Below, in pieces: positions 1 to 58,207 of a stretch of 64,000 bases of DNA. Source of the stretch: Octopus sinensis (lineage: Eukaryota); NCBI RefSeq assembly GCF_006345805.1, contig NC_043021.1, positions 17,422,001 to 17,486,000 of the forward strand, written 5' to 3'. Both the position numbers and the translations under genes were made by a program. Numbering within the stretch: position 1 is the first letter of the stretch; every line of letters begins with the position of its first letter. The notes beneath the pieces are model-generated. The model was given only the letters and a program-made list of their open reading frames with translations, was not told the DNA's origin and searched no databases.

Positions 1-333
1 ACAACTGTAGGCTAATGGAGTTCCTTACATAATTTCTTGTTCCTCTGTTAATAACTTACATTCTTATCATCTTCTGTACATAATTAATGCTTTTTTTCTG
101 AAGCATATGTATATTGTGTTCTAACACCATATTTATTAGTATCACTATACCGAAACAAAAGAAAAACTGTTTTACATCAAACTGAAGGAGTACTCAATAC
201 ATCTGGTAGAGTACATAAATTTATTATTCTTTAACAGTATTGACAGTGACTTCGAAGTCTTAGCCAGCTAAGCCATCATTGGATTGCCAATACTATTCTT
301 GTTAACAAATTATATACATATATATATATATAT

Positions 334-7139: not shown

Positions 7140-7702
7140 GTTTTGGCACAAGGCCAGTAATTTCGGGGTAGAGGATAAAGTCGTTTACATGGATTCTACT
7201 GCTCAGTTGGTACTTGTTTTATCAACCCCGAAAGGATGGAAGGTAAAATTAAACTCAGAACGTAAAGACGGACGATATATCGCAAGGCATTTTGTCTGGC
7301 ATGCTTAACGATTCTTATTTCTTTATTGCCCACAAGGGGCTAAACACAGAGAAGACAAACAAGGACAGACAAACGGATTAAGTCGATTAATCGACCCCGA
7401 AAGGATGAAAGGCAAAGTCGACCTCGGCGGAATTTGAACTCAGAATGTAATGGGGGACGAAATACCTATTTCTATTTCTTTACTACCCACAAGGGGCTAA
7501 ACGCAGAGGGGACAAACAAGGACAGACAAAGGGATTAAGTCGATTACATCGACCCCAGTGTGTAACTGGTACTTAATTTATCGACCCCGAAAGGATGAAA
7601 GGCAAAGTCGACCTCGGCGGAATTTGAACTCAGAACTTAACGGCAGACGAAATACCTCTTAGTATTTCGCCCGGCGTGCTAATGTTTCTGCCAGCTCGCT
7701 GC
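7140..7702 (-). mobile_element. Nested or tandem SINE family B copies
   Basis: Repeated cgaccccgaaaggatgaaaggcaaagtcgacctcggcggaatttgaactcag; head ctgccagctcgc at about 7688-7700. Confidence 0.85.
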
Positions 7703-9106: not shown

Positions 9107-10612
9107 GTGGCGAGCTGGCAGAGTGGTTAGCACACCGGGCGAGATGCTTAGCGGTATTTCTTCCTGCTCTTTACGTTCTGAGTTCAAATTCCGCCGAGGT
9201 CGACTTTGCCTTTCATCCTTTCGGGGTTGATAAATTAAGTACCAGTTACGTACTGGGATCGATGTAATCGACTTAATACCTATGTCTGTCCTTGTTTGTC
9301 CCCTCTATGTTTAGCCCCTTGTGGGTAATAAAGAAATAGGTATTTCTTTCTGCTCTTTACGTTCCGAGTTCAAATTCCTCCGAGGTTGACTTTGCTTTCA
9401 TCCTTTCGGGGTTGATAAATTAAGTACCAGTTACGTACTGGGATCGATGTAATCGACTTAATACCTATGTCTGTCCTTGTTTGTCCCCTCTATGTTTAGC
9501 CCCTTGTGGGTAATAAAGAAATAGGTATTTCTTTCTGCTCTTTACGTTCCGAGTTCAAATTCCTCCGAGGTTGACTTTGCTTTCATCCTTTCGGGGTTGA
9601 TAAATTAAGTACCAGTTACGTACTGGGATCGATGTAATCGACTTAATACCTATGTCTGTCCTTGTTTGTCCCCTCTATGTTAGCCCCTTGTGGGTAATAA
9701 AGAAATAGGTATTCTTTCTGCTCTTTACGTTCCGAGTTAAATTCCTCCGAGGTTGACTTTGCTTTCATCCTTTCGGGGTTGATAAATTAAGTACCAGTTA
9801 CGTACTGGGATCGATGTGATCGACTTAATACCGATGTCTGTCCTTGTTTGTCCCCTCTATGTTTAGCCCCTGTGGGTAATAAAGAAATAGGTATTTCTTT
9901 CTGCCTCTTACGTTCCGAGTTCAAATTCCTCCGAGGTCGACTTTGCCTTTCATCCTTTCGGGGTTGATAAATTAAGTACCAGTTACGTACTGGGATCGAT
10001 GTAATCGACTTAATACCTATGTCTGTCCTTGTTTGCCCCCTCTGTGTTTAGCCCCTTGTGGGTAATAAAGAAATAGGTATTTCTTTCTGCTCTTTACGTT
10101 CCGAGTTCAAATTCCTCCGAGGTTGACTTTGCTTTCATCCTTTCGGGGTTGTGAAAATTAAGTACCAGTTACGTACTGGGATCGATGTAATCGACTTAAT
10201 ACCTATGTCTGTCCTTGTTTGTCCCCTCTATTTTAGCCCCTTGTGGGTAATAAAGAAATAGGTATTTCTTTCTGCTCTTTACGTTCCGAGTTCAAATTCC
10301 TCCGAGGTTGACTTTGCTTTCATCCTTTCGGGGGTGATGATAAATTAAGTACCAGTTACGTACTGGGATCGATGTAATCGACTTAATACCTATGTCTGTC
10401 CTTGTTTGTCCCCTCTATGTTAGCCCCTGTGTGGGTAATAAAGAAATAGGTATTTCTTTCTGCTCTTTACGTTCGAGTTCAAATTCCTCCGAGGTGACTT
10501 TGCTTTCATCCTCCGGGGTTGATAAATTAAGTACCAGTTACGTACTGGGGGTCGATCTAATCAACTGGTCCCCTCCCCGAAAATTTCGGGCCTTGTGCCT
10601 AGAGTGGAAAAG
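9107..10612 (+). repeat. Tandem array of SINE family B (~185-bp unit; 7 full units plus one with a different tail)
   Basis: accagttacgtactggg at 9241, 9426, 9611, 9793, 9978, 10164, 10351 and 10533; a single A-box head gtggcgagctggcagagtgg at 9107. Confidence 0.92.
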
Positions 10613-14020: not shown

Positions 14021-14193
14021 AATGGTAAAATTCTTTCACTAAATTCTTCACTATTTTCTGAAATTAATCGACACAATGGCAGAATATTCCTACAGAAATA
14101 AGCTAACAAGAAGATTAACTCTTTTGATGCTAACTCAAAACTCAAAACTGCTTCTGGTTCTGTGATGTATTTCCTGTTTTAAACTGATATTTT

Positions 14194-14490
14194 ACGGAGA
14201 TGTACTTGCATAGCAAGTGATTTGATCTGAGATCGTGTGCTGAAACGAAAACAACTGCAGCGTGGAAGGTGTTTATAAGCCATTTAAGAAACACACAAAA
14301 GCCGTTTGATTCACTTCAACATTTAAGTTTAATTTGTCAAAATATTTTCGTCACTTTAAGACCGCGCAGTGAACAGGTCGCAGTCTTAAAGTGACGAAAA
14401 TATTTTGACAAATTAAACTTAAATGTTGAAGTGAATCGAACGGCTTTTGTGTGTTTCTTAAATGGCTTACAAACACCTTCCACGCTGCAA
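14194..14490. mobile_element. Fold-back Penelope-like pseudo-LTR pair carrying a G3-C8 hammerhead motif
   Basis: Arms 14256-14366 and 14378-14489 are near-perfect reverse complements; the + arm reads ca-GTGAACA-g-gtcgc-agtcttaaa-gtgac-GAA-AATATT-T-tgacaaa; same family as 56812-57040. Confidence 0.7.
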
Positions 14491-14492
14491 AC

Positions 14493-14727
14493 TATTTGTT
14501 TCTTTATTACCCACAAGGGGCTAAACATAGAGGGGACAAACAAGGACAGACAAAGGGATTAAGTCGATTACATCGACCCCAGTGCGTAACTGGTACTTAA
14601 TTTATCGACCCCGAAAGGATGAAAGGCAAAGTCGACCTCGGCGGAATTTGAACTCAGAACGCAACGGCAGACGAAATACGGCTACGCATTTCGTCCGGCG
14701 TGCTAACGTTTCTGCCAGCTCGCTGCC
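14493..14727 (-). mobile_element. SINE family B, full length
   Basis: On the minus strand: head ggcagcgagctggcagaaacgttag, B-box gagttcaaattcc, tail gtgggtaataaagaaac. Confidence 0.9.
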
Positions 14728-14916
14728 TTATCCTGTTTTAAACTGATATTGACCAAAAACTTCCCTCAAAATTCCATGTGAATTCATGTCGCAAACATCA
14801 GCTAAATAAGGACAAAATTATTTCTCTAAATTCTTCACTGTTTTCTAAAATTAATTGAGACAAAGGCAGAATATTTCCACAGAAATATGCTAACAAGAGG
14901 GTTAAGCTTTTTGAGC

Positions 14917-24294: not shown

Positions 24295-25030
24295 TGGTAT
24301 TTTGTCCGGTTTAAAGGCGGCGAGCTGGCAGAAACGTTAGCAGGTCGGGCGAAATGCTTAGCGGTATTTCGTCTGCCGTTACGTTGTGAGTTCAAATTCT
24401 GCCGAGGTCGACTTTGCCTTTCATCCTTTCGGGGTCGATAAATTAAGTACCAGTTACGCACTGGGGTCGATGTAATCGACTTAATACCTATGTCTGTCCT
24501 TGTTTGTCCCCTCTATGTTTAAGCCCCTTGTGGGTAATAAAGAAATAGGTATTTTGTCCGGTTTAAAGGCGGCGAGCTGGCAGAAACGTTAGCAGGTCGG
24601 GCGAAATGCTTAGCAGTATTTCGTCTGCTGTTACGTTGTGAGTTCAAATTCTGCCGAGGTCGACTTTGCCTTTCATCCTTTCGGGGTCGATAAATTAAGT
24701 ACCAGTCACGCACTGGGGTCGATGTAATCGACTTAATACCTATGTCTGTCCTTGTTTGTCCCCTGTGTTTAAGCCCCTTGTGGGTAATAAAGAAATAGGT
24801 ATTTTGTCCGGTTTAAAGGCGGCGAGCTGGCAGAAACGTTAGCACGTCGGACGAAATGCTTAGCGGTATTTCATCTGCTGTTACGTTGTGAGTTCAAATT
24901 CCGCCGAGGTCGACTTTGCCTTTCATCTTTTCAGGATCGATAAAAAATACCAGTTGAATACTGGGGGTTGATGTAATCGATTAGCTCCCTTCCTCAATCT
25001 TGCTGGCCTTGTGCAAAAATTTGAAATCAT
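24295..25030 (+). repeat. Three tandem SINE B copies (~252-bp unit including 5' flank)
   Basis: ggtattttgtccggtttaaaggcggcgagctggcagaaacg at about 24296, 24548 and 24798. Confidence 0.9.
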
Positions 25031-28709: not shown

Positions 28710-29110
28710 CTCTTTTTACTTGTTTCAGTCATTTTGACTGTGGCCATACTGGAGCACTGCCTTTAATCGAGCAACTCGACCCCGGGACTTATTCTTTGTA
28801 AGCCCAGTACTTATTCTATCGGTCTCTTTTGCCGGGGACATAAACATAAGTGACGAGGACATAAACACACCAGCATCGGTTGTCAAGTAATGCTAAGGGG
28901 ACAAACACAGACACACAAACATACACGCACATACATATACATCCATATATACGACGGGCTTCTTTCAGTTTCCATCTACCAAATCCACTCACAAGGCTTT
29001 GGTCGGCCCGAGGCTATAGTAGAAGACACTTGCCCAAGGTGCCACGCAGTGGGACTGAACCCGGAACCATGTGGTTGGTAAACAAGATACTTACCACACA
29101 GCCACTCCTG
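28710..29110 (-). mobile_element. SINE family A copy
   Basis: Near full-length match to 44007-44412. Confidence 0.85.
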
Positions 29111-35809: not shown

Positions 35810-36200
35810 ACTCTTTTACTCTTTTACTTGTTTCAGTCATTTGACTGCGGCCATGCTGGAGCACCGCCTTCAGTTGAGCAACTCGACCCTGGGACTTATT
35901 CTTTGTAAGCCCAGTACTTATTCTATCGGTCTCTTTTGCCGAACCGCTAAGTGACGGGGACATAAACACACCAGCATCGGTTGTCAAGCAATGCTAAGGG
36001 GACAAACACAAACATACACGCACGCATATATATACATATATACGACGGGCTTCTTTCAGTTTCCGTCTACCAAATCCACTCACAAGGCTTTGGTTGGCCC
36101 GAGGCTATAGTAGAAGACACTTGCCCAAGGTGCCACGCAGTGGGACTGAACCCGGAACCATGTGGTTGGTAAACAAGATACTTACCACACAGCCACGCAC
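35810..36200 (-). mobile_element. SINE family A copy
   Basis: Near full-length match to 44007-44412. Confidence 0.88.
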
Positions 36201-56357: not shown

Positions 56358-56730
56358 CTCTTTTACTCTTTTTTACTTGTTTCAGTTATTTGACTGTGGC
56401 CATGCTGGAGCACGGCCTTTAATTGAGCAACTCGACCCCGGAACTTATTCTATCGGTCTCTTTTGCCGAACCGCTAAGTGACGGGGACATAAACACACCA
56501 GCATCAGTTGTCAAGCAAGGCTAGGGGGACAAACACAAACATACACGCACACACACATATGCATATATATACATATATAAGACAGGCTTCTTTCAGTTTC
56601 CGTCTACCAAATCCACTCACAAGGCTTTGGTCGGCCCGAGGCTATAGTAGAAGACACTTGCCCAAGGTGCCACACAGTGGGACTGAACCCGGAACCATGT
56701 GGTTGGTAAACAAGCTACTTACCACACAGC
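56358..56730 (-). mobile_element. SINE family A copy
   Basis: Match to 44007-44412. Confidence 0.85.
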
Positions 56731-56768
56731 TACTACATAAATATGTGAAGTAAATGTACACAGACATA

Positions 56769-56812
<44 letters not shown>

Positions 56813-56897
56813 CACAACAATTGCAACGTGGAAGGTGCTTATAAGCCATTTAAAAACACAAGAAAACCTTTAGATTCACTTCAACATTTAAATGTAA

Positions 56898-56948
56898 TTT
56901 GTCAAAATATTTTCGTCTCTTTGAAACCGCAACCTGTTCACTGACAAA
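56898..56948 (-). ncRNA. Hammerhead motif, G3-C8 core variant (left arm)
   Basis: Minus strand tttgtca-GTGAACA-g-gttgc-ggtttcaaa-gagac-GAA-AATATT-T-tgacaaa. Confidence 0.65.
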
Positions 56949-56976
56949 ATTCCGTGCAACGTCTGCAGCACAAAAT

Positions 56977-57027
56977 TTTGTCAGTGAACAGGTTGCGGTC
57001 TCAAAGCGACGAAAATATTTTGACAAA
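56977..57027 (+). ncRNA. Hammerhead motif, G3-C8 core variant (right arm)
   Basis: tttgtca-GTGAACA-g-gttgc-ggtctcaaa-gcgac-GAA-AATATT-T-tgacaaa: 7-bp stem I, 5-bp stem II, palindromic stem III, UUU site ending at 57020. Confidence 0.7.
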
Positions 57028-58207
57028 TTACATTTAAAGTGAGGCGTTGTGAATGTATAACAGCCAAAACAGGATGTAGGAAGTTCAGAAGGTAGCAACA
57101 AATAGTTTCTTTTTACCAATGAAAGGTAGATTCTATGAAGCTTGTGCATGAAGTGCAAGGTTGCATGGCAGTGTAAACATGGGCCCAAAATGTAGATGTG
57201 TGAAACATCATCATCATTTAGCATCCGCTTTCCATGCTAGCATGGGTTGGACGGTTCAACTGGAGTCTGTGAAGCCAGAAGGCTGCATCAGGCCCAGTCT
57301 GATCTGCCAGTGTTTCTACGGCTGGATGCCCTTCCTAACGCCAACCACTCCGAGAATGTAGTGGGTGCTTTTTACATGCCACCCGCACAGGTGCCAGACG
57401 GAGCTGGCAAACGGCCACGATCGGATGGTGCTTTTTACGTGCCACCGGCACGGGGGCCAGGCAAGGCTGGAGAGAAATTAAGCTAACATGCTTTGCTGGG
57501 TGTTTAACCCTTTAACTGGCCATATCTAGCTCAATATTCTGCTTTAATGTTGAAACCCAACCAGATCTGGCCTATCACATCACCTCACACCCCTACACAA
57601 TGCTATTCTAAAACAACCAATCACACTCGTTGAAATCCCAAGCCACAAGATGATCCATGGTTAATCCTAAGCAATGTGAATAAACAAGCATCACCCACTT
57701 TGACAGAGGAATCGAATGCTGAAGAGATAAAATAGCAAAATAGCCCATCACTTCATTGGTGACTAGCTTCAATTCTTATAAGGAATAAAACCTAAGTCCC
57801 AGAGATGCACACACACACACACACACACACGCCATGCACACACAGAACTAATTCACATAACCACAAACCCCAACAGCTGTGTTTGAGTAATCCTTTGGAA
57901 TTAAAAGCAGCCATGTCCAACTCCAATATCCTCCGCCCCCCCCCCGGCCCCGCACTCCCACCGTTTTATGTCAATTCAGCCTGATCAGGCCTTTCATACC
58001 TTCCCTACAATGTTATTCTAAAAACAAACAATCTCACATCATCAAAATCTCAAAGTTATGAGCTGATGCAGGGTCAATTTAAAACAATGTGAATAACTAA
58101 GGGTCACACTGGTCAGAATAATCTGGATGCTAAATGCTCAACCCTTTTAATACCCAACCACTCACCCACCCAAGCCGACTCGAGGATGCAAACTTTATGT
58201 TTAAAAG

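What the first reader, a model, noticed from the sequence alone, without database searches (positions are those of the whole stretch)
56812..57040. Mobile hammerhead ribozyme family with a swapped G3-C8 catalytic core, as a back-to-back pair
Seen: both arms of this fold-back element have complete type-I hammerhead geometry (7-bp stem I tttgtca/tgacaaa, stem II, G12A13A14, palindromic stem III AAUAUU, H17=U), but the core reads GUGAACA instead of CUGANGA. A third copy at 14369-14375 has the same core, so this is a family trait and not a one-off mutation. Established: C3 and G8 form a tertiary Watson-Crick pair in the active hammerhead, and the compensatory G3-C8 swap restores activity. Inference: this is a natural, selected core variant spread by a Penelope-like element. 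Searches anchored on CUGANGA would miss it. Whether this family is already described cannot be determined here.
Basis: partly seen in the sequence, partly recalled or inferred. Interest (0 to 1): 0.85.

Follow-up and report, generated by a model that had tools for sequence, protein, structure and literature searches.

The report
Retrotransposon hammerhead with swapped core pair
This stretch is two short, head-to-head end pieces of a Penelope-like jumping gene whose thousands of copies carry a hammerhead-shaped RNA with two paired core letters swapped (G3-C8); two related elements use U3-A8 and C3-G8, so the pairing is likely kept by selection and the RNA is predicted, not shown, to cut itself weakly.

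Summary
It belongs to a Penelope-like element (PLE) whose RT + GIY-YIG parent I found in the same genome (5,013 pattern matches; 89 of the first 100 are G3-C8). The two closest PLE families found in this genome carry the same layout with U3-A8 and C3-G8, while the rest of their end repeats does not align: natural three-way covariation of the 3:8 pair. Corrections: only the + arm is intact. The back-to-back pair is the usual inverted PLE insertion and folds into one hairpin, not a ribozyme dimer. Against a strict need for cleavage: about 200 copies have an unpaired G3·G8, and 56 of 77 arms begin 41-62 nt upstream of the cut site (1 at it), so copied RNAs were uncut. Cleavage is untested. I found U3-A8 in print, but no natural G3-C8. 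This scan noted G3-C8 before on other DNA (phages, protist PLEs). New variant of a known kind.

The parts
56964..57038 (+). Right arm: short pLTR copy, from near the likely RNA start to just past the hammerhead; cut short at its 3' side
   Evidence: BLAST to the parent junction L146, 84% over 75 nt
56977..57027 (+). Complete minimal type I hammerhead motif with G3-C8
56984..56990 (+). Core GUGAACA (G3 at 56984, C8 at 56989)
56991..56991 (+). Extra G between A9 and G10.1, shared by all three sister families
   Evidence: feature described in PMC4209133
56992..57010 (+). Stem II (5 bp) with 9-nt loop; the loop differs between subfamilies
57011..57020 (+). G12A13A14, palindromic AAUAUU (stem III can form only between two motifs), U17; predicted cut 3' of 57020
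   Evidence: sequence
56816..56964 (-). Left arm: inverted pLTR copy from the likely RNA start through the hammerhead and the ORF start codon to about +35 of the ORF, ending beside a (TA)n run
   Evidence: BLAST 56957-56816; last 7 nt to 56964 read by eye
56898..56948 (-). Decayed hammerhead of the left arm: core intact, one mismatch in stem II
14192..14365 (-). Second insertion, left arm: runs from inside loop II to about +93 of the ORF
14367..14490 (+). Second insertion, right arm: core GTGAACA at 14369-14375, 5' strand of stem I missing

Best explanation
The finding is a head-to-head pair of short end-repeat (pLTR) copies of a Penelope-like retrotransposon, and the family's hammerhead motif carries a G3-C8 pair that is likely kept by selection and is predicted to give weak, dimer-dependent self-cleavage. 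Shown: the parent encodes RT, a Cys linker and a GIY-YIG endonuclease; the motif lies about 1.0-1.2 kb behind the ORF and, in tandem copies, 56 nt before the next start codon. Inferred: transcription starts about 22 nt before G3, so the motif occupies the first 60 nt of a capped mRNA. Reverse transcription starts at two internal sites (+33, +93 of the ORF) and runs to the RNA's 5' end, which makes thousands of 150-210 nt copies; a second, inverted copy is often laid beside the first. Two same-sense motifs (tandem read-through, or two RNAs held by the element's protein) would pair through AAUAUU and cut after U17. The copies sampled were made mostly from uncut RNA, and the window's fold-back pair would be inactive.
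For: Parent: ORFs of 715-1,042 aa with YVDD and a GIY-YIG-type region; the motif lies downstream in sense in 22 of 30 endonuclease loci; L146 reads from the motif into the ORF. Family state: 89 of the first 100 of 5,013 matches are G3-C8, none C3-G8; 59 of 62 arms chosen without regard to the core are G3-C8. Sister families: 95 of the first 100 of 1,932 matches U3-A8, 96 of the first 100 of 2,393 C3-G8. The three proteins form one clade, 100/100. Their pLTRs give no alignment better than E 0.2, yet U4G5A6, the extra G, G10.1-C11.1, GAAA, U16.1 and U17 are shared. On a 6-row alignment the 3:8 column pair is GC 3, CG 2, UA 1, never broken; covariation 0.556 vs 0.234 shuffled, 1 of 500. Within the family, common variants hit 0 of 42 core/stem sites and 12 of 61 others, Fisher p 0.0013. 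Ends. The engineered double swap partly rescues a PLE hammerhead, which needs the PLE protein (PMC11167929).
Against: No cleavage was tested. 202 matches have G8 with S3 (first 100 all G3·G8) against 159 for A8 plus U8 together, so a form without the pair was amplified; 6 of 11 motif-to-ORF junction copies carry it, 4 of them near-identical. 1 of 77 arms starts at the cut site. The cleavage triplet is UUU, recalled as a poor one. The C3-G8 sister has C at position 9, so this clade tolerates core changes. The covariation rests on 3 related families plus 1 unrelated motif, and the shuffle control ignores kinship. The loop II variants are not independent events. The modelled AAUAUU duplex is weak (-0.2 kcal/mol alone).
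Confidence: 0.62

Rival explanations
1. The motif keeps the hammerhead fold, including the 3:8 pair, but no longer cuts at a useful rate; it serves as a structured binding site for the element's protein or shapes the 5' UTR.
For: Sampled copies come from uncut RNA. G3·G8 copies were amplified. Core oddities across the clade: UUU triplet, C9 in one sister. In PMC11167929 cleavage was not needed for insertion and no reads ended at the cut site; PMC4209133 allows for functions other than cleavage.
Against: The catalytic letters G12, A13, A14, G5, A6 and A15.1-U16.1 are all kept in three families whose pLTRs otherwise do not align; the 3:8 pair forms in the active fold (established knowledge; PMC3088659).
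Confidence: 0.25
2. The motif is a dead relic: C3 and G8 changed by drift in one master copy, and the match G3-C8 is chance.
For: A G3·G8 form exists and could be an intermediate. Individual copies show about 2% private change in the core, as outside it.
Against: A second, independent matched change (U3-A8) in the sister family; two matched double changes by chance are about 1 in 9 to 1 in 16 (my estimate). No common variant in 42 structured sites. The ORF-linked copies with long open frames are G3-C8 in 7 of 7 loci with a descriptor hit (L128-L134). Private decay after insertion is expected under every reading.
Confidence: 0.1
3. The palindrome is a MITE or fold-back DNA transposon, and the hammerhead shape is accidental.
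For: Long inverted arms and thousands of short copies.
Against: Arms end at either of two ORF positions independently, many copies are single arms, and the unit runs on into an RT ORF.
Confidence: 0.02

Closest known systems
Minimal type I hammerheads of Penelope-like elements (Cervera and de la Pena 2014, PMC4209133; parts 1-2 of 4 read)
   Same: Type I layout in the pLTR, extra nucleotide between 9 and 10.1, G10.1-C11.1, palindromic stem III, predicted dimer action, opposite-strand pairs 100-700 bp apart; a natural U3-A8 variant (about 1,300 hits in Schistosoma).
   Different: G3-C8 instead of C3-G8 or U3-A8; three 3:8 states side by side in one clade of one genome.
Poseidon element PAc of Anolis and its hammerhead (Frangieh et al. 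2024, PMC11167929; parts 1-2 of 4 read)
   Same: Motif at the pLTR-ORF junction, two internal reverse-transcription starts inside the ORF, AT-rich targets, uncut RNA as template; C3G/G8C partly rescues.
   Different: There G3-C8 is an engineered mutant. Here the start codon is 56 nt after the cut site, the two 3' ends are about 58 nt apart, and the protein has a Cys linker.
EN+ PLEs with a C-terminal GIY-YIG domain and Zn-finger linker (Neptune/Nematis type; Craig et al. 2021, PMC8557442; passages and part 2 of 59 of the supplement read)
   Same: RT, Cys linker, GIY-YIG; tandem and inverted 5'-truncated copies; optional tail; (TA)n bias.
   Different: Clade not assigned here. All cores in the paper's hammerhead table (File S2) begin CUGA.
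Natural core variants of hammerheads (Perreault et al. 2011, PMC3088659; section 8 read)
   Same: Natural covariation of the 3:8 pair.
   Different: Only U3-A8 is named there.

Membership tests
Minimal type I hammerhead of PLEs | Type I topology with stems I and II | tested here: met
   7-bp stem I, 5-bp stem II; pairing probabilities 0.94 and 1.00 in the first 150 nt of the L146 unit
Minimal type I hammerhead of PLEs | U4 G5 A6, A9, G12 A13 A14, A15.1-U16.1, N17 not G | tested here: met
Minimal type I hammerhead of PLEs | C3 and G8 by identity (CUGANGA) | tested here: not met
   G3 and C8; none of the first 100 matches is C3-G8
Minimal type I hammerhead of PLEs | Watson-Crick pair between 3 and 8 | tested here: met
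   G-C here, U-A and C-G in sisters; about 4% of copies are G·G
Minimal type I hammerhead of PLEs | Extra nucleotide 9/10.1, G10.1-C11.1, palindromic stem III | tested here: met
   G56991; G56992-C57010; AATATT
Minimal type I hammerhead of PLEs | Located in the pLTR of a PLE | tested here: met
Minimal type I hammerhead of PLEs | Self-cleavage 3' of N17, as a dimer | not testable with these tools
   Needs an in vitro assay; the laid runs were contigs and show no molecule ends
Rfam hammerhead families | Match to a curated model | tested here: not met
   None among 51 matches at E<=10
EN+ Penelope-like element | One ORF with RT and C-terminal GIY-YIG | tested here: met
   1,042-aa frame with YVDD and YIGET; GIY-YIG E 4.7e-4 on the fragment, below Pfam's cut-off; the whole ORF gave no Pfam hit, while homologues P0088 and P0093 hit RVT_1
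EN+ Penelope-like element | pLTRs in tandem and inverted arrangement, with an optional tail | tested here: met
   3' ends at +29..36 (36 of 77) and +91..95 (38 of 77)
Neptune or Nematis clade | Cys linker between RT and endonuclease | tested here: met
   C-x3-CxxC seen in the ORF
Neptune or Nematis clade | Placement in a tree with named references | not tested
   The tree held no named PLE references
Non-LTR retrozyme | Head-to-tail tandem units, each with a hammerhead, no ORF | tested here: not met
   Copies are mostly single or head-to-head and derive from an ORF-bearing element
MITE / fold-back DNA transposon | Fixed terminal inverted repeats, transposase parent | tested here: not met

The most novel reading that the evidence does not exclude
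The hammerhead at the very 5' end of the capped PLE mRNA is a decapping switch: it cuts only when two RNAs of one family are brought together, so it senses the element's own level and limits it. Family-specific stem III sequences (AAUAUU, AAUU, AGAACU) and three different 3:8 pairs would keep the switches of co-resident families from cross-talking. The genome would then record only uncut templates, which would explain why hammerheads are universal in PLEs yet dispensable for insertion in vitro.
Probability: 0.13. Interest if true: 0.75.

Novelty: new variant of a known kind. Interest (0 to 1): 0.5.

Why it matters
If active, this is a natural G3-C8 hammerhead in thousands of copies in an animal genome, with U3-A8 and C3-G8 sisters as built-in controls: evolution's version of the compensatory-mutation test of the 3:8 pair. 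Searches built on CUGANGA miss all three families (one has C9), about 9,300 pattern matches in this genome, so hammerhead counts in PLE-rich genomes are too low. The copy ends also give genome-wide support for internal initiation of reverse transcription on uncut RNA, which bears on the open question of what PLE hammerheads do.

Tried and rejected
1) I first took a canonical CUGAUGA hammerhead in L142 for the sister family's motif; one search showed it is a separate inserted palindromic element, and the sister's own motif (7 of 8 loci, one degenerate) is U3-A8. 2) Splice-site reading: the DNA just 5' of the motif looks like a branch point and acceptor, with GTRAG donors upstream, but 0 spliced junctions were found in the 302 loci held; unsupported, not excluded. 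3) Idea that unpaired G3·G8 is enriched in copies made from read-through RNA: 6 of 32 in one upstream-extended set (2 are deletions) but 0 of 22 in endonuclease loci; confounded by subfamily, inconclusive. 4) G3·G8 copies as one clade: they span several loop II types and diverge as much as G3-C8 copies (5.6% vs 5.8%); no tree built; ancestral or derived is open. 5) Expression: no RNA holder on record; contigs show no splice joint or molecule ends; no evidence either way. 7) Lunse et al. 2017 was not held; it and its supplement, and the supplements of PMC4209133 that I did not open, may list G3-C8. 8) No PLE ORF and none of the other four hammerhead families lies in the window. 9) MAFFT misaligned the L142 motif; it was dropped before counting pairs.

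Full report
Observation. The + arm at 56977-57027 has a 7-bp stem I, core GTGAACA (56984-90), one extra G, a 5-bp stem II, GAA, AATATT and U17. The pattern occurs three times in the window, with 0 expected by chance. A descriptor that allows any letter at 3 and 8 passes only this arm; 10 shuffles give 0. The minus arm has a stem II mismatch, and the copy at 14369 lacks most of the 5' strand of stem I. Rfam lists no hammerhead here.

What it belongs to. The genome (2.7 Gb) holds 5,013 exact matches to a 23-letter pattern with positions 3, 7 and 8 left free; 89 of the 100 listed are G3-C8 and none C3-G8. Following longer copies led to an endonuclease fragment and then to frames of 715-1,042 aa with an RT motif YVDD, a C-x3-CxxC linker and a GIY-YIG-type end. 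The motif lies downstream in sense in 22 of 30 endonuclease loci, which reach only 1.5 kb past the match. L146 runs from the motif, through a start codon 56 nt after the predicted cut, into the ORF. This is the pLTR-ORF junction of a Penelope-like element. The best-scoring protein relative is labelled Octopus vulgaris (57% identity), so the host is probably an octopus. The core GTGAACA also shows in contigs of runs under three organism labels.

The pair. Head-to-head arms are common among copies, and inverted 5'-truncated copies are a described PLE trait (PMC8557442 passages; PMC3846280 passages). A transcript across the window's pair folds into one hairpin of -104.6 kcal/mol with stem II essentially absent. 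A hammerhead dimer needs two same-sense motifs, so this pair is not one.

Selection on 3:8. A sister family (54-59% protein identity among the three) has UUGAAAA, an extra G, GUUGC/GCAAC, GAA, AAUU and U17; 95 of the first 100 of 1,932 matches are U3-A8. A third has CUGAUGC, an extra G, GUCAC/GUGAC, GAA, AGAACU and U17, downstream of its ORF in 3 of 4 loci; 96 of the first 100 of 2,393 are C3-G8. The three form one clade (100/100), with the G3-C8 family outside the other two (31 rows, midpoint root, no named references). If C3-G8 is ancestral, as is usual for hammerheads, two separate matched double changes occurred. Outside the motif the pLTRs do not align (best E 0.23). On 6 aligned motifs, 91.7% of cells pair, 4 of 6 pairs show changes on both sides, and slid controls fall to 18-59%; the rows are related and few. 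Within the family, 62 of 77 arms cover the motif: common variants (10% or more) fall on 0 of 42 core and stem sites and 12 of 61 other sites, 5 of them in loop II. Private changes are about 2% everywhere, as expected for decay after insertion.

Evidence against a strict need. G8 with S3 gives 202 matches, the first 100 all G3·G8; A8 and U8 together give 159; non-G at position 3 gives 227. A C-to-G change outnumbering both other changes at position 8 means an unpaired form was copied, or the site is a hotspot. These copies span several subfamilies.

Ends of copies. I sampled 77 arms from 70 loci on contig C1, anchored on the ORF start (7,062 matches), so not on the motif. 5' ends: 56 lie 41-62 nt upstream of the cut site, 5 further upstream, 9 inside the motif, 1 at the cut, 6 beyond (the class at -43 is partly an artefact of one reference). 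3' ends: 36 at +29..36 and 38 at +91..95 of the ORF. In a separate count, 22 of 34 arms have G before the AGATG start where the element has C or T; 6 of the 34 extend upstream, and in at least 5 the G can come from the inverted arm. I read this as a copied cap at a transcription start (inference). In the U3-A8 family, 20 of 31 arms start 5-9 nt before the search pattern. This fits the anole PLE study, where reverse transcription starts at two internal ORF sites, uses uncut RNA, and the hammerhead cuts only with protein (PMC11167929).

Mechanism. Likely: capped RNA starts just before the motif; the protein binds near the ORF start and copies back to the cap, giving short copies; same-sense motifs pair through AAUAUU and cut slowly, processing tandem transcripts or removing the cap. 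Shown: anatomy, linkage, covariation, end positions. Inferred: transcription start, cap, dimer, cleavage and its role. G3 with U17 rather than C17 may avoid a G3-C17 mispair, by analogy with a remark in PMC3884650 (passages); but both sisters also have U17, so this is weak.

Literature. Natural U3-A8 is in print (PMC3088659 section 8; PMC4209133). Searches for G3-C8 terms returned only engineered cases; searches with octopus terms and passages of PMC13282606 (0 hits for hammerhead) gave no report of this motif; PMC6155905 and PMC6765202 passages add none. Lunse et al. 2017 could not be read, and most subscription papers are not searched, so priority is not certain. Earlier notes of this scan report G3-C8 in protist PLEs and phages (unchecked); none matches this sequence.

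Verdict. A real, new core variant of a known ribozyme kind in a known class of element, with good comparative support for the pair and no test of activity. Interest 0.5.

Noticed in passing
L141:4726-4778 (+), L143:3810-3862 (-); 1,932 matches in G000: Sister PLE family with a U3-A8 hammerhead and only a 3-bp stem I.
   Followed up: yes
L299:863-915, L301:737-789; 2,393 matches in G000: Third PLE family with C3-G8 but C at position 9 and a non-palindromic stem III; long ORFs (up to 1,120 aa) and many 98-99% identical copies suggest recent activity.
   Followed up: partly
L142:3098-3150 (-); L096:90-142 (-), L076: Two further elements with canonical CUGAUGA hammerheads; the one in L142 is an inverted pair. 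Parents not traced.
   Followed up: no
G000 C30 near 11.2-12.5 Mb (L153, L154, L164); L150, L158, L160, L165: Clusters of tandem copies with the unpaired G3·G8 core joined to the ORF head; possible source loci of that form.
   Followed up: partly
L128-L135, region just upstream of the motif: Branch-point and acceptor-like sequence right at the likely RNA start, with GTRAG donors some 300-400 nt upstream around (TACA)n repeats; resembles the Penelope intron that ends at stem I, but no spliced copy was found.
   Followed up: partly
L036, L039, L044, L206, L228, L231: Several copies share the same flanks and junction, so they were multiplied as part of a larger repeat and are not independent insertions.
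   Followed up: no
window 56475-56734, 28847-29106, 35938-36197 and others; 14517-14729, 7493-7702, 24314-24526: Two abundant SINE-like repeats of about 200-260 nt, one with at least 9 copies in the window.
   Followed up: no
window 9153-10529: Tandem array with a period of about 185 nt, related to 24361-24879.
   Followed up: no
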